In this document: piece after piece, positions 1 to 9,277 of the stretch
Layout: the number at the start of each line of letters is the position of its first letter
Numbering within the stretch: the stretch's first letter is position 1
From: Candidatus Iainarchaeum sp.
Lineage (GTDB): Archaea > Iainarchaeota > Iainarchaeia > Iainarchaeales > CSSED10-239
DNA length: 9,488 nt
Assembly (NCBI GenBank): GCA_003559395.1
Contig: PWLL01000066.1
Location: 1 to 9,488 of the forward strand
Reading direction: 5' to 3'
Notes under the pieces: model-generated
What the model was told of the DNA's origin: nothing
Databases searched by the model: none
The model's input: the letters and a program-made list of their open reading frames with translations, nothing else
Program-made: the position numbers and the translations under genes

Positions 1-2514
1 GTGTGCTATTGTCTTTACGGAGATTTCCCTAACAGAGCAAACAGAAAAATAAATCTCTTAGAAGCCATAATGTTTAAACCAGTAAAAAAAGAAACAGCAA
101 AACTTATTTTAGAACTAGAAAAACAAAACAATCATTACAGAATAGAAAGAGAAATACAAAAAAACAAAATAAACACAGCCAAGCTATATAAAAACAATCA
201 ACTAATAGCAGGACCAAAACAAAAAGAAGTAACTCAAAAGGTTTCAGAGATATTAGGCTTAGACTATTCTTTATTTGTTACAATCGTTTACTCAGAACAA
301 AACGAACTAGACTATTTTTTAAAAATACCACCTAACAAAAGAAAAGAAAAATTTGATGAGCTTTTTGGAATCTCAGAATTGTCTTTTATAAAAGATAACG
401 CTAATGAAATTTCTAAAGAACTTATAAAAGACCAAAATACACAAGAAGCAATACTAAAACAAATTGTTTCACAGCTTTCTTCAATAGATATTAATAAACT
501 TAAAAAAGAACAACTAGAAGAACAGCAAAAAATACAAAAACTTTTAGAAGAAAAAGAAAAACAAAGCTTTCAGAAAACAACACTTTTTGAAACTTTAAAA
601 CAATTAAAAGAAAAAAAACAAAAACATGAACACTATGGCGCAGAAATAAACATTTGTGAGTTTAAGATAGAAGAAATAAAAAAAGATCTTAAAAAACTAG
701 AAGAAAAACATAATGACTATTTTTTAAAAAAAGCACAAGAACTTCTAGACGAAAAACAAAACACACAAACTAAAAAAAAAAAACTAAAAGAACTTTTAGA
801 AGAAAAACAAAAACTCTCTTTAAAGATAAATAGTTTTAATAAAAATATAGAATATATAGAAAAACAAATACAAGAAAAAGAAACACAAGAAACACCAAAA
901 GAAATTTCTGAAAAAATAGAAGTTTTAGAAAAAGAAATATCTTTACAAACTAAACAACTAGAACAAAAACAAGAAGAAAATAAAAAAAAAGAACTAGAAC
1001 AGAAAAATCTAGAAAATACACATAAATTTTATGTTTCTGAAAAAGAAAAACAAGACCAAAAGATAACCCTTCTAGAACAAAAAAAACATAAAATAACACT
1101 TGCAGAAACACAACTAAAAAAAGAACTAGAACTCTTAAAAGAAGAACATAAACAACAACAAGAAAAACAAATTAATCTAAAAACACAAAACAAAGATCTA
1201 GAAAAAGCAATAAACGCACTAGAAAAAGATATTTTTAAATGCCCTGTGTGTGATTCTTCTTTATCTCAAGAAGAAAGAAGAAAGAAACTAGAAGAAAAAC
1301 AAGAAAAATTAGCTTTAAACATAAAAGAATTAGAACAAACAAATGATCTTTTAAAAGAAATTTTAGAAAAACAAAAAAAAACAGAAATACAAGAAAAAAA
1401 TTTAGAAGAAAATAAACTTCTAGAAAAACAAATACAAGAACATGACGAACAAAAACAAATATATTTAGAAAAAATAAATCACCTAGAAAAAGAATTACTA
1501 AAAAAAACACCAATAATAGATATAAAACAAGAAAAACAAAAACTAGAAGATGCAAAAAAAAACTTAGATGTTTTTTATAAACAAAAACAAACTTATGAAA
1601 ATATTTTAAAACTTAAAAAAGATCTAAAACAAATCTTTTCAGAAAAAAAAGATTTAGAGAAAATGTTTGAAGATATAAAGATAACAGATAAAGATCTTGA
1701 AGAAATAGAACAAATAGAAAAACAAATAACTCTTGCAGAAGAACATCTTTATAAAAAAAAAGAACAACAAGAATATTTAGAAAAATATAATCTATACAAA
1801 CACGAAAAAGAAAAAATAAACTATAAAGAAGAAGAATATTTAAAAATTAGCTCAGAAGAAAGAAATTTAGAAAATAATCTTAAAAATCTAGAAGAAAAAA
1901 CAAATCTTTTTTCTAAAAACATAAAAGATAGACAAGAAAGAATAGATCACTACAACAAACAAAAAGAAGAAGAACAAATAAAAAAACAAGTCTATGATAA
2001 AATATTATTAAGAAAAAAAAGTGTTTCTGATTTTATGGTATCTATAGAACATACAAAAGAACAACTAAGAAAAGAAATTATCTCAGAAATAAATCAAGCT
2101 TTAGATATTATATGGCCAAAAGTATATCCATATAAAGACTATCTTTCAGCAAGACTTTCTTCAAAAAATGACTATATCTTAGAAGTTTTGACAACAGAAA
2201 AAGAATGGTTGAGAGTTGAAGGTTTTTTAAGTGGTGGAGAAAGAGCTTGTGCTGCATTAAGTATAAGGATTGCTATTGCTTTGATTTTAACAAAATCATT
2301 AGGGTTGTTGATATTAGACGAACCCACTCACAATTTAGATGTAGAAACAATTACTGCACTTTCTCAAGTTTTAGATAATCAATTACCTTCTTTAGTAGAC
2401 CAAATATTTGTAATCACTCATGATCAAAAGCTATTAGACATAACAACTTCTAAAAAGTTTTTATTAGACAGAGATAAAGAAATTGATGGTGTTTCTTCTG
2501 TTGTAGAATATTAG
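1..2514 (+). CDS. rad50: DNA double-strand-break repair ATPase Rad50 (SMC-like). The 5' end is cut by the window edge, so roughly the first 40 codons including Walker A are missing.
   Basis: Frame 1 is open from base 1, and the GTG at base 1 is not a start. The N-terminus '..CYCLYG' matches the segment just after the Rad50 P-loop, and 'YSEQNELDYF' is Q-loop-like. A K/E/Q-rich coiled coil of about 600 aa follows. The central zinc hook CPVC is at nt 1240-1251. The ABC signature LSGGE is at nt 2227-2241. Walker B is 'LLILDEPTHNLD' (nt 2305-2340) and the H-loop is 'VITHD'. The stop TAG is at 2512-2514. Confidence 0.9.
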   Translation: MCYCLYGDFPNRANRKINLLEAIMFKPVKKETAKLILELEKQNNHYRIEREIQKNKINTAKLYKNNQLIAGPKQKEVTQKVSEILGLDYSLFVTIVYSEQNELDYFLKIPPNKRKEKFDELFGISELSFIKDNANEISKELIKDQNTQEAILKQIVSQLSSIDINKLKKEQLEEQQKIQKLLEEKEKQSFQKTTLFETLKQLKEKKQKHEHYGAEINICEFKIEEIKKDLKKLEEKHNDYFLKKAQELLDEKQNTQTKKKKLKELLEEKQKLSLKINSFNKNIEYIEKQIQEKETQETPKEISEKIEVLEKEISLQTKQLEQKQEENKKKELEQKNLENTHKFYVSEKEKQDQKITLLEQKKHKITLAETQLKKELELLKEEHKQQQEKQINLKTQNKDLEKAINALEKDIFKCPVCDSSLSQEERRKKLEEKQEKLALNIKELEQTNDLLKEILEKQKKTEIQEKNLEENKLLEKQIQEHDEQKQIYLEKINHLEKELLKKTPIIDIKQEKQKLEDAKKNLDVFYKQKQTYENILKLKKDLKQIFSEKKDLEKMFEDIKITDKDLEEIEQIEKQITLAEEHLYKKKEQQEYLEKYNLYKHEKEKINYKEEEYLKISSEERNLENNLKNLEEKTNLFSKNIKDRQERIDHYNKQKEEEQIKKQVYDKILLRKKSVSDFMVSIEHTKEQLRKEIISEINQALDIIWPKVYPYKDYLSARLSSKNDYILEVLTTEKEWLRVEGFLSGGERACAALSIRIAIALILTKSLGLLILDEPTHNLDVETITALSQVLDNQLPSLVDQIFVITHDQKLLDITTSKKFLLDRDKEIDGVSSVVEY
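2493..2514. repeat. Left copy of a perfect 22-bp direct repeat, TTCTTCTGTTGTAGAATATTAG. It covers the last codons SSVVEY plus the stop of rad50.
   Basis: Base-by-base identity with 3265-3286. The repeat ends exactly on the last base of the rad50 stop codon. Confidence 0.95.
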
Positions 2515-2516
2515 TA

Positions 2517-2521
2517 TTTTT
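2517..2521 (+). terminator. Oligo-T tract (T5) 2 nt after the rad50 stop, a possible archaeal intrinsic terminator.
   Basis: 'TAG ta TTTTT' in a 21-nt convergent spacer before the minus-strand toxin stop. T5 tracts are common in DNA this AT-rich, so support is weak. Confidence 0.25.
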
Positions 2522-2535
2522 AAGAAGTTGTTAAA

Positions 2536-2925
2536 TTAATTATCTCTTTTGTGTTTAATACTTTTATTTTGGTTTTTTAAGGCTTTATCATTTGACCAGA
2601 TGTGTGTATTAGTTCTTAGCGCTAATGCAAAATAGCAAACATCATTTTCATCAGGACAAATTTCTTTTGCTTGTTTTAAATATTTTTGATAGTTTTTTAA
2701 TGGAATCATTTCTATATGTTTAAATAAAATTGTAATTAGTATTTCTATTTCTTCTAAAGACAGTCCTGATTTTTTACAAATTTCTTTTTTGTATTTATTT
2801 ATTTCTAACAATAAAAAATCTGGGGTTATAAGTAAAAATTTATTATTAATAATTATTTTGGCTGTGTTATTTTTTTGTTTGATTAGTGCAGATATAATAA
2901 TATTTGCATCTATTATAAACTTCAT
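2536..2925 (-). CDS. vapC: PIN-domain ribonuclease toxin (VapC-type), 129 aa.
   Basis: The N-terminal 'KFIIDANIIISAL' carries the first PIN acidic residue. 'PDENDVCYFALAL' and 'IWSNDKAL' supply the distal acidic residues. Its ATG overlaps the upstream antitoxin stop in an ATGA arrangement at 2922-2925. The size is typical of VapC. Confidence 0.8.
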   Translation of the reverse strand: MKFIIDANIIISALIKQKNNTAKIIINNKFLLITPDFLLLEINKYKKEICKKSGLSLEEIEILITILFKHIEMIPLKNYQKYLKQAKEICPDENDVCYFALALRTNTHIWSNDKALKNQNKSIKHKRDN

Positions 2926-3152
2926 AAACTTTCTTGTTTAGTTTTTTTAGTTATTCCTTTATTAATCTTTTTAGAAATTTCTATTGCATCTTTTTCTGTT
3001 AGTTTTGATTTTTTTATAATTGAATTAAATAATTTTAATTCGTACATTTTTTCTGTGATTGCTTTTCTTGCAATTTCTGACCAGTTTATTTCTTTATGTT
3101 CTTTCATTTCTTCTTTAATATCTTGAGATATAGATAAAGTTATTGTTGGCAT
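2922..3152 (-). CDS. vapB: Ribbon-helix-helix-type antitoxin (VapB-like), 76 aa.
   Basis: 'TITLSISQDIKEEMKE..INWSEIARKAITEKM' fits the beta-strand plus two helices of an RHH DNA-binding fold. It lies upstream of the PIN gene and overlaps it by 4 nt. A GGTGA SD (3157-3161, minus strand) sits 4 nt upstream of the ATG. Confidence 0.7.
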   Translation of the reverse strand: MPTITLSISQDIKEEMKEHKEINWSEIARKAITEKMYELKLFNSIIKKSKLTEKDAIEISKKINKGITKKTKQESL

Positions 3153-3176
3153 TTTATCACCTTTTTTTTATTGTTT

Positions 3177-3250
3177 ATAATATATTTAATACACTTAATA
3201 TATTTATCACGCATAATATATTTAATACGCGTAAAATATATAAATGTATC
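3177..3250 (-). promoter_or_regulatory. Array of 3-4 imperfect direct repeats with a period of about 17-19 bp (core TAATATATTTA). It is a putative vapBC promoter/operator region.
   Basis: ATAATATATTTAATAC is exact at 3177-3192 and at 3213-3228. A third core copy is at 3197-3207 and a degenerate fourth is near 3232-3250. The array lies 25-100 nt upstream of the antitoxin start, and the middle copy overlaps TATA-like sequence on the minus strand. Confidence 0.4.
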
Positions 3251-3264
3251 TATAACATAGATTA

Positions 3265-3286
3265 TTCTTCTGTTGTAGAATATTAG
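3265..3286. repeat. Right copy of the perfect 22-bp direct repeat, TTCTTCTGTTGTAGAATATTAG.
   Basis: Identical to 2493-2514. The flanks are unrelated, and there is no rad50-like reading frame upstream of this copy. Confidence 0.95.
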
Positions 3287-3563
3287 ACTTATATTAAGTT
3301 TAAAAGATATAAAGGCAATACATGATCCTTTTCTTTAGAACACTGTTTTTTAAAAATAAAGATATATTTATATATTGTTTAAAATTTTGACTTAAATGTC
3401 CCTTTTTTAGTCATTTTTTTGCACAAAACCTCTTTTTCTTTTTCTTTTAATTGCCTTTTTAAGTGTTTTCTTAAGTTTTTTGTTGTAATTGCTAATCACA
3501 ACTTTTGCTTGTTTTTTTAAAAAACCAAACCAAATTAAAAGGTTATTGTACAATATATTATAT

Positions 3564-4808
3564 ATGACCCCTTTTGATCAAAATACAATCAGAAACATAT
3601 ACTATACAAAGAACCTTATTAAAGACTATTACAAAGCAAAAGACGTTTCTACAGCAATAGATATTTCAAAAAGAGAATTTGGAATAGGAACATATGGTAA
3701 AAAAATAAGCCAAAGACATCTTACTTTTGAAAATAAAGACCAATTTAATGATTATTTAAGAAAACAAACCCCTTTCTTTGTTTCATACTCAGTAGCCTAT
3801 TATAAATTTCCAGAAAAAAGACCAATGGAAAATAAAGAAATATATGGCTCAGATCTTATATATGAGTTTGATTCAGATGACTTTGATCTTCCTTGTCATA
3901 ACACGCATAATATCTGGCATTGTAAAGAATGTAACCTCTCAGGCGTAGGTAATAACAAAACCTGCCCAGAATGTGAAAAACCAACCAAGATAGACGAATG
4001 GACTTGTGATCACTGCCTTAACAAAGCTAAAAAAGAAACAATAAGACTTGTTGATTTTCTAGAAAATGAACTTAATCTTGATCCAAATTCTTTTGTGATT
4101 AGTTTTTCAGGATCAAAAGGATATCATATACGAGTAACAGACAAAAATGTTCTTCCATTATCTAAATCAGCAAAAATACAACTTACATCATATGTTTCTG
4201 CAGAAGATCTTAAGCTTAAAGAGCTTGGGTTTGTATACGAAAACAAACAATGGTATTGCTCATCTCCAAAACAAGCCTATGGTTGGGCAAAAAAGATACT
4301 TTCTTATATTCAAGAGATCATTAATAGTTATACAACAGAACAATTACAAGAAACCTTCAATATAGGAAAAAAGAAAGCAAGGGTTATTTTTGAAAATAAA
4401 GAAGTTATTTTAAACAATTTGTACCATAATTTCTTATGGAGTCAATTTGTTGGGGCTTCTAATTTTTGGAAAGCTTTTTTAGAAAAAGCAATAAGTGATT
4501 TAAGATTTGAAATTGATGTACAATCATCTGTTGATGTTTATAAGATAATGAGAGTGCCAGATACGATTCATGGTGGTACTGGATTTTTGTCTACGTACAT
4601 AAAAACAATAGAAGAACTAAAAGAATATGATCCTTTTAAAGATCCTGTTGTTTTAGGAGAAAAAAAATATAAAAAAATAAAAATAATAAAACAAACTCCA
4701 AAATTTAGAATAAAAGAAGAAACGTACGGGCCATATATGCCCAATGAAGAAATAGAACTTTTAGAAGACGTTTGTGTTTTTTTAATATTAAAAGGTGTTG
4801 CAATATGA
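3564..4808 (+). CDS. priS: DNA primase small (catalytic) subunit PriS of the archaeo-eukaryotic primase family, 414 aa.
   Basis: Catalytic motif I is 'DLIYEFDSDD' (Asp codons at 3870-3881). Motif II is 'SGSKGYHIRV'. Motif III is 'YKIMRVPDTIHGGTGF'. A Cys/His zinc module 'CHNTHNIWHCKEC..CPEC..CDHC' lies between motifs I and II. I prefer the ATG at 3564 over the track's TTG at 3489, because the 25-aa extension is hydrophobic junk. The TGA stop overlaps the next ATG (ATGA at 4805-4808). Confidence 0.9.
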   Translation: MTPFDQNTIRNIYYTKNLIKDYYKAKDVSTAIDISKREFGIGTYGKKISQRHLTFENKDQFNDYLRKQTPFFVSYSVAYYKFPEKRPMENKEIYGSDLIYEFDSDDFDLPCHNTHNIWHCKECNLSGVGNNKTCPECEKPTKIDEWTCDHCLNKAKKETIRLVDFLENELNLDPNSFVISFSGSKGYHIRVTDKNVLPLSKSAKIQLTSYVSAEDLKLKELGFVYENKQWYCSSPKQAYGWAKKILSYIQEIINSYTTEQLQETFNIGKKKARVIFENKEVILNNLYHNFLWSQFVGASNFWKAFLEKAISDLRFEIDVQSSVDVYKIMRVPDTIHGGTGFLSTYIKTIEELKEYDPFKDPVVLGEKKYKKIKIIKQTPKFRIKEETYGPYMPNEEIELLEDVCVFLILKGVAI

Positions 4809-6965: not shown

Positions 6966-7742
6966 TTGTTTAAGAAAAAAAGAGAAAATACACTTGAAAA
7001 ACCATTATCACAATCATCAATAAAACAAGTATATCTTGATATACAAGATGGACAAAAAACACTTTTAGGAGAAGATCAACTAGGTTTGATTTATCTTGGA
7101 AAAGCAGTTTTTAAAAATCAAGATCGAATGCCTGTTTCTATAAAGATATATCACATACCTTTAGAAAAAGATGTTGTAAAAGAATATTTAGACGCAATCT
7201 TAATACTAAAAGAACTTAAGAAAAAAAAAGATATTTTATTTAACACCAACTCAAAAAACGTTTTTTTAAAACTTAATTTCCTAAAAACTCAAACAGAAAG
7301 ACATATAGAAGGAGAATGGGTGTATGTGTCTTATTATCATGAGAAAAAAAACTTTGAATATCATCCAGATCTTAAAAAAATAAAAATTCCTTTTGAAGAA
7401 AAAAAAGAAGAACTAGTGTGGATATTTACTAAGTTTTTAGAAAATAGAATCTATCCTACTAACCAATTGATTTTAGAGTTTTTAAACATAGATACAAAAA
7501 AAAACATAAACTTAGATAAAATTGTAAAAGAAAGAGACCAACTAAAAAATCCAGAGATACAATTTGATTTGTTGATGATGAAACTAAAATGGCTTGCAAG
7601 AGAAATTTCTAGAAATAAAAAAAACATGTACGATTGTGATCTTTATGAGTTGTGTGATGTTGTAAATAAATATAGTAGTTTTAGAAAAATAAAAAACAAA
7701 ATAAACGAATATAAAAAGAAAATAAGGTTTGAAAAAGCATGA
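6966..7742 (+). CDS. Hypothetical protein of 258 aa. It may be a highly divergent RIO/Bud32-like atypical kinase fold lacking the catalytic Asp. It is translationally coupled to herA.
   Basis: The TTG start has GGTGA (6957-6961) 4 nt upstream, matching the spacing at neighbouring genes. The stop overlaps the herA ATG (ATGA at 7739-7742). Residues 40-63 'GLIYLGKAVFKNQDRMPVSIKIYH' resemble the RIO glycine loop plus beta3 Lys, and N166 and D176 are spaced like the catalytic-loop Asn and metal-binding Asp. No HxD is present. The confidence value refers to it being a real CDS; the fold assignment is about 0.25. Confidence 0.75.
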   Translation: MFKKKRENTLEKPLSQSSIKQVYLDIQDGQKTLLGEDQLGLIYLGKAVFKNQDRMPVSIKIYHIPLEKDVVKEYLDAILILKELKKKKDILFNTNSKNVFLKLNFLKTQTERHIEGEWVYVSYYHEKKNFEYHPDLKKIKIPFEEKKEELVWIFTKFLENRIYPTNQLILEFLNIDTKKNINLDKIVKERDQLKNPEIQFDLLMMKLKWLAREISRNKKNMYDCDLYELCDVVNKYSSFRKIKNKINEYKKKIRFEKA

Positions 7743-9277
7743 TGAATCTAAAAGATATAGGCACAATCATTTCTACGATAGATGGACCATCTACAACAAA
7801 GATTTCTTTTGTGTGTACAAGTAAGGTTGTACATAAAGGAAGCTATGTTCAAATCAACTATTCACAAGGAAGCTTAATAGGCGTCGTAACAGACGTAATC
7901 AAAAGAAATAGATATTTTGAAAACCCAGACTCAGTAAAAGAATTTGAAATTTCACAAGAAGATATTTCAAAAGTTTTGCCAAGTGAAGAATGGGAGTTTT
8001 TAGAAAGTGTTGTAAAACCTTTGGGAGTTTGTTTAGAAAAAAGAATTTCTAAAATCACTGTCCCTCCATCACCAGGAGCAAAAGTATATCTTGCTGATGA
8101 AAAACTTTTGTCTAGATTTTTAAAATTTGCAGAAAACGGCTTGTTTTTAGGAAATATAGATAACCCTTCTACAAAAGTAAAATTTGATCTTGATAAATTG
8201 TTTCAAAAACACTTAGCGATTCTTGCACAATCAGGTGCTGGGAAAAGTTATTTGACATCTGTTATTTTAGAAGAACTTTTAGACAGAAAAAAAGAAGATG
8301 GCAGACTTGCAGTTGTTCTTTTTGATACGCATGGAGAATATTATAGCTTTGCAGACCCTACAACAAATAAAGAACATACAGACTATTCATCAAAAACAAC
8401 ATATATAAACTCAAAAGATATAAAAATTGGATGTACTGGTTTACAATCTTCTTTTTTTTATTCAATTTTGCCAAATCTTTCACATGCACAAAAAAGAGAA
8501 TTGTCCTTAATTATTGAAGATCTTAAAAAAGAAACCAAAACAGGAGCAGGACCATTTGATCTAAGAGCTATTATTAATAAAACAAAAATTTTAAATGTTT
8601 CAGAAAAAGTAAAAAATATACTTATTAACGAACTATATTCTTTAGAATCAATGAGGTTGTTTGGAAAAACAGACTCTCCATCTATCTATGATATAGTAAA
8701 TCCTGGAAAATTAACCTTAGTTGATTTTTCAAAAGAAACTAATCAAAAAAGAAAACAAACCATTCTTTATTATTTTGCACATAAGCTTTTTTATGGAAGA
8801 GTCAATAACGATAATGTGCCTCCGTGTCTTATGATAATAGAAGAAGCACATCAGTATGCTCCAGAAACAACAACTAAAGAAAACGCACTATCTAAAAACC
8901 TATTAGAAAGAATTGCACGAGAAGGACGAAAGTTTGGTTGTTGTATTTGTTTGATTTCTCAAAGACCTGTTAGATTGTCATCAACCATCTTATCACAAGC
9001 AAACACCCACATTATGTTAAGAGTAACCAATCCTCACGATCTTAAACATATAGGACAATCAAGTGAAGGGCTAGATCAAAGATCAATTGATATGATCTCT
9101 TCTTTAAAAGTAGGAGAAGCAATTGTTGTTGGAGAAGCCAGCAGTTTTCCTGTGTTTTTTAGTGTTAGACAGAAAAAGTCCAAAGACTCACATCTTGCTA
9201 ACGACCTATCTTCTTTATCTAAGAACTATGAGCTTAATAAAGAACTACAAGACAAAGATATAGAAAGTTTTATGTGA
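7739..9277 (+). CDS. herA: HerA-type hexameric DNA translocase/helicase ATPase (FtsK-HerA superfamily), 512 aa.
   Basis: The N-terminal HAS-barrel-like segment is 'IGTIISTIDGPSTTKISFV...GSYVQINY..GSLIGVVTDV'. Walker A is 'ILAQSGAGKSY' (nt 8228-8248). Walker B is 'CLMIIEEAHQYAP' (EE at 8840-8845). The Arg-finger region is 'REGRKFGCCICLISQRP'. The C-terminal 'GEAIVVGEASSFPVFFSVR' is typical of archaeal HerA. Confidence 0.9.
   Translation: MMNLKDIGTIISTIDGPSTTKISFVCTSKVVHKGSYVQINYSQGSLIGVVTDVIKRNRYFENPDSVKEFEISQEDISKVLPSEEWEFLESVVKPLGVCLEKRISKITVPPSPGAKVYLADEKLLSRFLKFAENGLFLGNIDNPSTKVKFDLDKLFQKHLAILAQSGAGKSYLTSVILEELLDRKKEDGRLAVVLFDTHGEYYSFADPTTNKEHTDYSSKTTYINSKDIKIGCTGLQSSFFYSILPNLSHAQKRELSLIIEDLKKETKTGAGPFDLRAIINKTKILNVSEKVKNILINELYSLESMRLFGKTDSPSIYDIVNPGKLTLVDFSKETNQKRKQTILYYFAHKLFYGRVNNDNVPPCLMIIEEAHQYAPETTTKENALSKNLLERIAREGRKFGCCICLISQRPVRLSSTILSQANTHIMLRVTNPHDLKHIGQSSEGLDQRSIDMISSLKVGEAIVVGEASSFPVFFSVRQKKSKDSHLANDLSSLSKNYELNKELQDKDIESFM

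What the first reader, a model, noticed from the sequence alone, without database searches (positions are those of the whole stretch)
2493..3286. A perfect 22-bp direct repeat copying the rad50 3' end and stop codon brackets an opposite-strand vapBC cassette
TTCTTCTGTTGTAGAATATTAG occurs at 2493-2514, where it encodes the last codons SSVVEY plus the TAG of rad50, and again at 3265-3286. The roughly 750 bp between the copies holds exactly one self-contained unit: a PIN toxin, an RHH antitoxin and their promoter/iteron region. These are the only minus-strand genes in an otherwise co-directional window. The repeat ends exactly on the stop codon, and identity stops abruptly on both sides. A rough estimate allowing for AT bias puts the chance of a 22-mer match within 9.5 kb far below 1 (order 1e-3 or less; this was not rigorously computed). 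Integrative elements that target gene 3' ends and carry a replacement copy of the target (attL/attR) leave this footprint. Here, though, no integrase or transposase is present, and 22 bp is longer than typical IS target-site duplications. The locus could be a decayed integrated element reduced to its addiction module, or evidence of a recombinase-in-trans mechanism that moves TA cassettes.
Basis: partly seen in the sequence, partly recalled or inferred. Interest (0 to 1): 0.72.

Follow-up and report, generated by a model that had tools for sequence, protein, structure and literature searches.

The report
Toxin-antitoxin cassette inserted at rad50's stop codon
A single toxin-antitoxin gene pair was inserted exactly at the end of the rad50 DNA-repair gene of a tiny soda-lake archaeon. 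The insertion duplicated the last 22 bases of rad50, which gives an unusually clean footprint of how such "addiction" cassettes enter genomes, although the enzyme or process responsible is still unknown.

Summary
TTCTTCTGTTGTAGAATATTAG occurs exactly twice (2493-2514 and 3265-3286). It is the longest exact repeat in the window and is not a chance match. It brackets 750 bp that hold only a PIN_2 toxin, an RHH antitoxin and their operator repeats.

Three independent assemblies carry both copies. A relative (PriS 77% identical) has the identical 22-mer once, at its rad50 stop, followed directly by priS. That is an empty site. Nine further relatives also have rad50 next to priS with no toxin-antitoxin pair. 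So this is a lineage-specific insertion with a 22-bp duplication.

The 22-mer is not a dispersed motif. None of 82 related rad50 loci repeats its own 3' end. No close second copy of the cassette exists. There are no terminal inverted repeats and no recombinase.

New findings:
- The toxin's C-terminus is clipped.
- The only two strong local inverted repeats in the window each enclose one repeat copy.

Best reading (about 0.5): the att-type footprint of an integrative element, now reduced to its addiction module. Main rival (about 0.25): recombinase-free capture by template switching or end joining. Interest is moderate, because this is a single example and the mechanism is unproven.

The parts
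1..2514 (+). rad50 (5' end cut by the window); the target gene
   Evidence: NCBIfam Rad50 models at E=1e-33 over residues 29-813, below the equivalog cut-offs. SbcC/Rad50 Walker B. A CPVC zinc hook is visible in the translation. The C-terminus DGVSSVVEY* is identical in the empty-site relative L004.
2441..2456 (.). IR-L arm a (TAACAACTTCTAAAAA), inside the rad50 coding sequence
   Evidence: 15/16 complementary to 2518-2533. The RNA fold of 2436-2540 is -24.2 kcal/mol, z=-3.5, matched by 0/200 shuffles. No such hairpin is found in 11 relatives with empty sites.
2493..2514 (+). Left copy of the 22-bp direct repeat: last rad50 codons plus TAG
2518..2533 (.). IR-L arm a' (TTTTAAGAAGTTGTTA), starting 3 nt after the rad50 stop, between the repeat and the toxin's stop codon
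   Evidence: (I12)
2536..2925 (-). PIN_2 (VapC-like) toxin, 129 aa, C-terminus clipped
   Evidence: Pfam PF10130 E=2.5e-26. TIGR00305 scores above its cut-off. D6, E41, D92, D95 and D113 are conserved. The sequence diverges from 27 homologues near the C-terminus (within or just after the QNKSIK stretch, about nt 2554-2563) and lacks their last ~10 residues.
2922..3152 (-). RHH antitoxin (VapB-like), 76 aa, overlapping the toxin by 4 nt
   Evidence: PF26688 RHH_12 on the antitoxin gene of the Logan contig L001, which shows no mismatch to the window in that gene. Weak NCBIfam VapB hit at E=3e-5, below the cut-off. No hit in the local Pfam copy. Clear homology to the antitoxins of six other cassettes.
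3177..3242 (.). Three 18-bp-spaced operator-like repeats (core ATAATATATTTAATAC)
   Evidence: family D14. The motif ATTAAATATATTAT, or close variants of it, recurs upstream of the antitoxin in the L091, L101 and L106 cassettes, so the repeats belong to the cassette.
3235..3251 (.). IR-R arm b (AATATATAAATGTATCT); contains a TATA-box-like TTTATATA on the cassette's sense strand
   Evidence: 16/17 complementary to 3360-3376. A similar TATA-like element sits at the same relative position in the L106 cassette.
3265..3286 (+). Right copy of the 22-bp direct repeat
3287..3359 (.). 73-nt spacer of uncertain origin, with no clear counterpart in L004's intergenic region
3360..3376 (.). IR-R arm b' (AGATATATTTATATATT), at the point where homology to the empty-site intergenic region of L004 resumes
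3377..3563 (.). Native rad50-priS intergenic DNA, homologous to L004
   Evidence: Local alignment with L004, including GTCATTTTTTTGCACAA and the conserved priS upstream block.
3564..4808 (+). priS (DNA primase small subunit); the right-hand native neighbour
   Evidence: NCBIfam PriS E=3e-52. 160 homologues; the gene is called from M26 in all assemblies.

Best explanation
The locus is the footprint of a site-specific (att-type) integration at the 3' end of rad50.

Proposed sequence of events:
1. A mobile element carried a 22-bp copy of the rad50 terminus, up to and including the stop codon.
2. It recombined with the chromosomal copy. This left rad50 intact (attL, 2493-2514) and displaced a second copy (attR, 3265-3286) next to the original downstream DNA.
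3. The element later lost everything except its self-stabilising RHH-PIN toxin-antitoxin (TA) operon. A deletion running from the attL side into the toxin's dispensable C-terminal tail is the likeliest cause.
4. What remains is a 750-bp, integrase-less mini-island flanked by att sites, comparable to a bacterial CIME (cis-mobilizable element).

Shown directly: the duplication, the insertion relative to empty sites, the TA identity of the cargo, the clipped toxin, and the absence of a recombinase and of terminal inverted repeats.

Inferred: that a tyrosine-type integrase made the junctions, and that other element genes once lay between attL and the toxin.
For: - The 22/22 direct repeat is non-random.
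- The identical 22-mer occurs once, at the rad50 stop, in the empty-site relative L004. Rad50-priS adjacency without a TA pair holds in nine further relatives.
- The repeat covers exactly the last codons plus the stop, so the target gene is reconstituted. The C-terminus DGVSSVVEY* is the same as in L004.
- This is the standard geometry for archaeal integrated elements. [quoted passage not shown]
- Elements that lost their integration genes but kept attL and attR are a recognised class, the CIMEs (PMC5704250).
- The toxin lacks the last ~10 residues present in 27 homologues, which is consistent with a deletion from the attL side.
- There are no terminal inverted repeats (p=0.97).
Against: - There is no integrase or any other element gene, and no room for one in 750 bp.
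- None of 82 related rad50 loci shows a repeat of its own rad50 3' end longer than 14 nt. The upstream control reaches 15 nt. So there is no sign that any element family uses this target.
- No third, attP-like copy of the 22-mer exists in viral or JGI metagenome collections.
- No close relative of the cassette sits on any virus or plasmid.
- The remnant is very tight: 21 nt and 22 nt of spare DNA at its two ends.
- The att model does not explain why the only two strong local inverted repeats in the window each enclose one repeat copy, each pairing an insert-side arm with a host-side arm.
Confidence: 0.5

Rival explanations
1. Recombinase-independent capture. A break or stalled fork at the rad50 stop codon was repaired by microhomology-mediated, synthesis-dependent end joining or serial template switching (MMBIR/FoSTeS-like). 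A foreign DNA fragment carrying the toxin-antitoxin (TA) operon was copied in. Short stretches of nearby sequence were copied at the junctions: 22 nt directly (the repeat) and 16-17 nt in inverted orientation (arms a' and b or b').
For: - The only two local inverted repeats in the window (15-nt arms, at most 1 mismatch, loop at most 120 nt) each enclose one repeat copy. Each pairs an insert-side arm with a host-side arm.
- Such repeats are expected 0.33 times per shuffled window. They occur 0.44 times per 10 kb in 662 kb of related genomes, and not at all in 40 kb around other cassettes.
- The left hairpin is absent from 11 empty-site relatives.
- All three repeats are near-perfect (22/22, 15/16, 16/17), which suggests a single recent event.
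- The toxin is clipped as if by a random fragment end.
- There are no terminal inverted repeats, no recombinase and no recurrent use of the target.
Against: - The model needs several template switches.
- The duplication ending exactly on the stop codon has to be put down to selection or coincidence.
- The right-hand inverted repeat is AT-only and TATA-box-like, so it may simply be two similar promoters.
- I chose the inverted-repeat thresholds after seeing the first one, so the significance is overstated.
- No donor sequence is available to check junction microhomologies.
- No other short templated pieces were found in the junction DNA.
Confidence: 0.25
2. Campbell-type single crossover by general (RadA-dependent or short-homology) recombination. 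A circular DNA fragment from a related strain happened to carry the rad50 terminus next to the cassette, and it recombined with the chromosome through the 22-33 bp of identity.
For: - The rad50 terminus is highly conserved between lineages. The last 33 nt are identical in the window and L004 despite 77% PriS identity, so short identical tracts exist for recombination.
- A homologous cassette shows 99.2% identity between two lineages whose flanking ArgRS genes are only 84-89% identical. Such blocks are therefore exchanged among related DPANN archaea.
Against: - It only moves the problem: the circle must first have acquired the 22-mer next to the cassette.
- 22 bp is very short for homologous recombination.
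- It does not explain the inverted repeats.
- No donor locus was found.
Confidence: 0.12
3. Transposition with a 22-bp target-site duplication, carried out by a transposase or casposase supplied in trans (a MITE-like, non-autonomous element carrying the toxin-antitoxin pair).
For: - Direct repeats flank an insert that lacks its own mobility gene.
- Casposons are known to target the 3' ends of protein-coding genes (PMC6563490).
Against: - There are no terminal inverted repeats at or near the insert ends (p=0.97 and 0.41).
- 22 bp is longer than known target-site duplications of DDE transposases and casposons (my own knowledge: 2-15 bp).
- The cassette is single-copy everywhere that was searched.
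- No transposase is present in the window.
Confidence: 0.05
4. Chance repeat or assembly artefact.
For: The genome is AT-rich and low in complexity, so repeats of 15-20 nt are common.
Against: - The expected number of extra copies of this 22-mer is below 1e-7.
- Three independent assemblies agree.
- The repeat exactly brackets DNA that is absent from relatives.
Confidence: 0.02

Closest known systems
Archaeal integrated mobile elements inserted in the 3'-distal region of protein-coding genes (for example the thaumarchaeal iMGEs of Krupovic et al. 2019, PMC6563490)
   Same: - Direct repeats (att) flank the insert.
- The target is the 3' end of a housekeeping gene, and the reading frame is reconstituted.
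- The att length (22 bp) falls within the reported range (8 to more than 25 bp, median 17).
- The integration site was validated against an empty site in a relative.
   Different: - Those elements carry a tyrosine integrase (or a casposase) and other genes. This insert is 750 bp with no mobility gene.
- No related element using rad50 as a target was found in 82 loci.
CIMEs (cis-mobilizable elements) of Firmicutes: decayed ICE/IME remnants that keep attL and attR (PMC5704250)
   Same: - Flanked by att-like repeats at the 3' end of a gene.
- Lacks integration and transfer genes.
- The cargo can be retained by selection.
   Different: - CIMEs are bacterial and usually kilobases long.
- They are recognised because related intact ICEs use the same att site and can join onto them. 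No intact partner element is known here, and the host is a DPANN archaeon.
Toxin-antitoxin cassettes in chromosomal (super)integrons
   Same: - A single toxin-antitoxin operon with its own promoter forms a compact, repeat-bounded cassette.
- It is often oriented against its neighbours.
   Different: - There is no IntI and no cassette array.
- The repeat is a copy of a host gene end, not an attC.
- The junction inverted repeats have unrelated arms and, by inspection, lack the R''/R' (RYYYAAC/GTTRRRY) cores.
VapBC-type type II toxin-antitoxin systems (PIN_2 toxin with RHH_12 antitoxin)
   Same: - Antitoxin-then-toxin gene order with a 4-nt overlap.
- Conserved PIN acidic residues.
- Operator-like repeats upstream.
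- Homologous pairs occur in other DPANN genomes.
   Different: - The toxin lacks the C-terminal ~10 residues of its homologues.
- Activity is untested.
Template-switch or microhomology-mediated insertions (MMBIR/FoSTeS; polymerase snap-back synthesis in alternative end joining)
   Same: A short duplication at the insertion point, plus short inverted copies of nearby sequence at the junctions.
   Different: - These are described mainly in eukaryotes and in bacterial quasi-palindrome mutagenesis (my own knowledge).
- As far as I know, capture of a whole functional operon in this way has not been described in archaea.

Membership tests
Type II toxin-antitoxin, VapBC-like (PIN_2 / RHH_12) | PIN-domain toxin with the conserved acidic residues | tested here: met
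   PF10130 E=2.5e-26 and TIGR00305 above its cut-off. D6, E41, D92, D95 and D113 are conserved in an alignment of 28 sequences.
Type II toxin-antitoxin, VapBC-like (PIN_2 / RHH_12) | Small DNA-binding antitoxin gene immediately upstream, translationally coupled to the toxin | tested here: met
   A 76-aa ORF overlaps the toxin by 4 nt. RHH_12 is assigned to the antitoxin gene of contig L001, which shows no mismatch to the window in that gene. Homologous to six other cassette antitoxins. The local Pfam scan gave no hit, and the NCBIfam VapB hit is below its cut-off.
Type II toxin-antitoxin, VapBC-like (PIN_2 / RHH_12) | Operator repeats in the promoter (autoregulation) | tested here: inconclusive
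   Three 18-bp-spaced repeats. The motif ATTAAATATATTAT or close variants of it recur upstream in three homologous cassettes. Binding was not tested.
Type II toxin-antitoxin, VapBC-like (PIN_2 / RHH_12) | Toxicity that is neutralised by the antitoxin | not testable with these tools
   Needs expression experiments. The C-terminal truncation of the toxin leaves its activity uncertain.
Integrated element made by a site-specific (tyrosine) recombinase | Insert flanked by direct repeats that occur once at the empty site of a relative | tested here: met
   Two copies in the window; one identical copy at the rad50 stop in L004.
Integrated element made by a site-specific (tyrosine) recombinase | Integrase gene within the element | tested here: not met
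   Only the PIN and RHH genes lie between the repeats. No recombinase domain occurs anywhere in the 9.5-kb window.
Integrated element made by a site-specific (tyrosine) recombinase | Same target site used by related elements in other genomes, or an attP-bearing free element | tested here: not met
   None of 82 related rad50 loci has a downstream repeat of its own 3' end of 15 nt or more. The 22-mer is absent from viral contigs, and in JGI metagenomes it occurs only in the same locus.
Integrated element made by a site-specific (tyrosine) recombinase | Excision to a circle and restoration of the empty site | not testable with these tools
All four assemblies show the filled site.
CIME-like decayed element | attL and attR retained while integration and transfer genes are lost | tested here: inconclusive
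   The repeats are retained and the genes are absent. The clipped toxin suggests a deletion. However, no ancestral or partner element is known.
DDE transposon / MITE / casposon | Terminal inverted repeats at the insert ends | tested here: not met
   Local alignment of the insert ends gave p=0.97 excluding the repeats and p=0.41 including them.
DDE transposon / MITE / casposon | Multiple copies at different sites | tested here: not met
   Only one protein cluster at 90% identity or more, always in the same locus. The next best toxin homologue is about 53% identical.
Integron gene cassette | IntI integrase, attI, and an array of attC-bounded cassettes | tested here: not met
   No integrase and no array in the window. 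The two junction inverted repeats have unrelated arms. No formal attC model search was run.

The most novel reading that the evidence does not exclude
The cassette was not moved by any recombinase. It was copied into a break at the rad50 stop codon by serial template switching or snap-back synthesis. That single event would have left three near-perfect scars: a 22-nt direct re-copy of the rad50 end, and a 16-17-nt inverted copy at each junction. If so, this would be a concrete, sequence-level example of how toxin-antitoxin modules, which have no mobility genes, colonise streamlined archaeal genomes. The addiction property would then fix the rare event. A second homologous cassette in groundwater DPANN archaea hints that such footprints may recur. 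It has an imperfect 20-bp bracketing repeat, and its block is 99.2% identical across lineages whose flanking genes are only 84-89% identical.
Probability: 0.25. Interest if true: 0.7.

Novelty: new variant of a known kind. Interest (0 to 1): 0.5.

Why it matters
Toxin-antitoxin modules are among the most horizontally mobile genes in prokaryotes, yet they carry no mobility genes. How an individual cassette enters a chromosome is rarely visible.

This locus preserves an unusually clean before-and-after picture:
- an empty site with the same 22-mer in a relative;
- a 750-bp insert that contains nothing but the operon;
- an exact duplication that keeps an essential repair gene intact.

The host is a DPANN (Iainarchaeota) archaeon, a group whose mobile elements are almost unknown.

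If the junctions were made by an integrase, this would be, as far as I know, the smallest att-flanked remnant described in archaea. It would show that an addiction module can outlive its carrier element. If they were made without a recombinase, it would document a different route for gene gain in streamlined genomes. Either outcome can be tested with existing read data and closer genomes.

Tried and rejected
1. Chance or artefact. Rejected by Markov-model random sequences, the expected frequency of the 22-mer, and three independent assemblies.

2. Dispersed motif. Rejected: exact-match scans found it only at this locus and, once, at L004's rad50 stop.

3. Transposon or casposon. Rejected: no terminal inverted repeats, and the cassette is single-copy.

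4. rad50 3' end as a hot spot for integrative elements. I scanned 80 GTDB Iainarchaeota or related loci plus L003 and L004. No locus repeats its own rad50 end (maximum 14 nt against 15 nt in the upstream control). The larger rad50-priS gaps in L010, L015 and L016 hold ordinary co-directional genes, not toxin-antitoxin pairs or elements.

5. Deciding which flank is native by aligning the DNA after each repeat copy to L004 and L003. Inconclusive: left flank p=0.07-0.08; right flank p=0.03 by local and 0.8 by anchored alignment. Even L003 against L004 shows no significant similarity directly after the stop.

6. A conserved native rad50 3' hairpin as the explanation for the left inverted repeat. 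Rejected: absent in 11 relatives. L004's weak helix has z=-0.6.

7. General test of whether RHH_12-PIN_2 cassettes are bracketed by repeats. Five of seven show nothing, and one (L100) has an imperfect 18/20 repeat that could instead reflect paralogous gene starts.

8. Search for further templated fragments in the junction DNA. Only chance-level matches.

9. Donor search on viruses and plasmids. One distant viral hit (36%) and haloarchaeal plasmid PIN genes at 31-35%; nothing close.

10. Rfam and tRNA scans of the window. Nothing found.

11. The bacterial promoter/terminator scanner was not used, because the host is an archaeon.

Full report
**1. The observation**

The 22-mer TTCTTCTGTTGTAGAATATTAG is present at 2493-2514 and 3265-3286. 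It occurs nowhere else in the window, even with three mismatches, and never in 200 shuffles. It is the longest exact repeat in the window.

In random sequences generated from Markov models of orders 1-5, an exact repeat of 22 nt or more arises in 0.3-1% of windows, mostly from A-rich low-complexity runs. The expected number of extra copies of this particular, compositionally ordinary 22-mer is about 1e-9 to 4e-8.

The left copy is the end of the long ORF 1-2514 and stops on the G of its TAG. Identity ends abruptly on both sides.

The ORF is Rad50. It matches the NCBIfam Rad50 models at E=1e-33 and has a Walker B motif and a CPVC zinc hook. The right-hand neighbour is PriS.

The 750 bp between the copies hold:
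- a PIN_2 toxin at 2536-2925(-) (Pfam E=2.5e-26; TIGR00305 above its cut-off);
- a 76-aa RHH antitoxin at 2922-3152(-), overlapping the toxin by 4 nt;
- three 18-bp-spaced repeats at 3177-3242.

All other supported genes in the window are on the + strand.

**2. Not an artefact, and not a dispersed motif**

A Logan assembly of SRR490129 (L001) is 99.8% identical to the window over 8455 bp, with 15 SNPs, and carries both copies. A JGI contig (3300000563, SL_3KL_010_SED) also carries both. Two SRR490128 contigs each cover one junction.

The 22-mer is absent from IMG/VR. In 241 million JGI metagenome records it occurs only on that same contig.

**3. It is an insertion**

PriS homologues place the organism among the DPANN archaea labelled Iainarchaeum or Diapherotrites. 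Three close relatives were fetched.

| Locus | Source | PriS identity | What lies upstream of priS |
|---|---|---|---|
| L004 | GCA_036681025.1 | 77% | rad50 ends ...GATGGTGTTTCTTCTGTTGTAGAATATTAG, the identical 22-mer, once. A 242-bp intergenic region and priS follow |
| L003 | GCA_015657915.1 | 73% | rad50, then priS after 198 bp, with a different rad50 terminus |
| L005 | JGI 3300001335 contig (ML8 prefix) | 78% | a different upstream gene |

The window's intergenic DNA from about 3377 onward aligns with L004's intergenic region.

A scan of GTDB genomes with the Rad50 C-terminus returned 80 further loci. In the nearest clade, rad50 is directly followed by priS in L011, L012, L014, L017, L018 and L019, with gaps of 70-391 bp. 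In L010, L015 and L016 it is separated by one co-directional gene. No locus has a PIN or RHH gene there.

The toxin-antitoxin (TA) pair is therefore a lineage-specific insertion at the rad50 stop codon, accompanied by a 22-bp duplication of the target.

**4. What the insert is**

The antitoxin and toxin are clear homologues of RHH_12-PIN_2 pairs found in other DPANN-like contigs. The operator-like motif ATTAAATATATTAT, or close variants of it, recurs upstream of the antitoxin in three of those cassettes. The 'iterons' therefore belong to the operon, not to a recombination system.

The catalytic acidic residues of the PIN domain are intact. However, the window's toxin diverges from 27 homologues near its C-terminus and ends five residues later (HKRDN*). 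It lacks the last ~10 residues of its homologues. The foreign DNA, or a later deletion, therefore cuts into the 3' end of the toxin gene.

The cassette is single-copy. Among 5.8 billion proteins, the only cluster at 90% identity or more is this same locus, and the next best hit is about 53% identical. Nothing close lies on known phages or plasmids.

**5. Tests of mechanism**

- *Transposon or casposon.* There are no terminal inverted repeats, only one copy, and 22 bp is longer than known target-site duplications (my own knowledge).
- *Site-specific integration.* The geometry is right. The repeat equals the target gene's last codons plus its stop, so the gene is reconstituted. Its length lies within the range reported for archaeal elements. 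In Thaumarchaeota, 14 of 68 elements sit in the 3'-distal parts of protein-coding genes, with a median att of 17 bp (PMC6563490).
- *CIMEs.* Elements that lost their integration genes but kept attL and attR are a known class in bacteria, called cis-mobilizable elements (PMC5704250). One deletion from the attL side into the toxin's tail would give the present structure.
- *Against site-specific integration.* There is no integrase. None of the 82 related rad50 loci repeats its own terminus (maximum 14 nt against 15 nt in the upstream control). No attP-like copy of the 22-mer was found.
- *Generality.* Of seven independent RHH_12-PIN_2 cassettes, only the window has a perfect bracketing repeat. 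One (L100) has an imperfect 18/20 repeat, and five have none. None has an integrase within 4-5 kb.

**6. An unexpected feature**

I scanned the whole window for local inverted repeats with 15-nt arms, at most one mismatch and a loop of at most 120 nt. Exactly two were found, and each encloses one copy of the 22-mer.

| Repeat | Host-side arm | Insert-side arm | Match |
|---|---|---|---|
| IR-L | 2441-2456, inside the rad50 coding sequence | 2518-2533, 3 nt after the stop | 15/16 |
| IR-R | 3360-3376, where homology to L004 resumes | 3235-3251, the distal TA promoter with a TATA-like element | 16/17 |

Such repeats are expected 0.33 times per dinucleotide shuffle of the window. They occur 0.44 times per 10 kb in 662 kb of related genomes, and not at all in 40 kb around the other cassettes.

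The left hairpin folds at -24.2 kcal/mol (z=-3.5). It has no counterpart in 11 relatives with empty sites.

Each repeat pairs an insert-side arm with a host-side arm, so it exists only in the integrated configuration. The att model does not predict this. A repair or replication event that copies nearby sequence at the junctions (snap-back synthesis, template switching) would predict it.

Caveats:
- The right-hand repeat is AT-only and may simply be two similar TATA regions.
- I set the thresholds after noticing the first repeat.
- No other templated pieces were found.
- The flank alignments to L004 cannot decide which side of each repeat copy is native.

**7. Verdict**

The mechanism remains unproven. 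My weights are:

| Explanation | Weight |
|---|---|
| att-type integration footprint, now an integrase-less remnant reduced to its addiction module | about 0.5 |
| Recombinase-free templated capture | about 0.25 |
| Short-homology Campbell integration | about 0.12 |
| Transposition in trans | about 0.05 |
| Chance or artefact | about 0.02 |

I classify it as a new variant of a known kind, of moderate interest. It is a very clean single example in a poorly known archaeal lineage. The junction features deserve a systematic survey.

Noticed in passing
window 2441-2456 / 2518-2533 and 3235-3251 / 3360-3376: The only two strong local inverted repeats in the 9.5-kb window each enclose one copy of the 22-bp direct repeat. 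Each pairs an insert-side arm with a host-side arm. Background is about 0.4 per 10 kb, and the left hairpin is absent from empty-site relatives.
   Followed up: partly
window 2536-2565 (toxin C-terminus): The PIN toxin diverges from 27 homologues near its C-terminus, ends HKRDN*, and lacks their last ~10 residues. The boundary of the foreign DNA, or a later deletion, therefore clips the toxin gene.
   Followed up: partly
L100 2033-2052 / 2766-2785; L091 5701-6440: A homologous RHH_12-PIN_2 cassette in Hainich groundwater contigs is bracketed in one strain by an imperfect 20-bp repeat (18/20) that copies the start of a neighbouring gene. The cassette block is 99.2% identical between two lineages whose flanking ArgRS genes are only 84-89% identical, which suggests recent exchange of the cassette. 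Paralogous gene starts are an alternative explanation for the repeat.
   Followed up: partly
L091 6397-6480 vs 9036-9115: An ~80-bp repeat reflects tandem paralogous gene pairs (254-aa and 263-aa genes, each followed by an X-type gene start) in an AAA_5-containing minus-strand operon. The copy of the X gene next to the cassette is reduced to its first few codons.
   Followed up: no
window 3479-3500; L004 about 1296-1345: An inverted-repeat motif, GTTGTAAY-N5-ATYACAAC, is conserved upstream of priS in the window and (twice) in L004. It may be a regulator binding site.
   Followed up: no
L010 8596-9270; L015 8606-9322; L016 8627-9514: The rad50-priS gap varies in content among relatives. A conserved 224/238-aa gene of unknown function lies there in L010 and L015, and an unrelated 295-aa gene in L016.
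   Followed up: no
L003 16687-19437: The 916-aa aRF1/eRF1 gene of the relative GCA_015657915.1 carries intein and LAGLIDADG endonuclease domains (precomputed Pfam list).
   Followed up: no
window 6966-7742: A 258-aa ORF between the PAC2-family gene and herA has no Pfam or NCBIfam match. It is conserved in position in L001-L003.
   Followed up: no
window about 3438-3445: Strain-level length polymorphism in a T/C-rich run of the rad50-priS intergenic region, seen between the window/L001 and L002/L007.
   Followed up: no
window 3143-3286 (+): A mechanical 47-aa ORF antisense to the toxin-antitoxin promoter ends in the right repeat copy, in the same frame as rad50 (…SSVVEY*). It is probably not a gene.
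   Followed up: no
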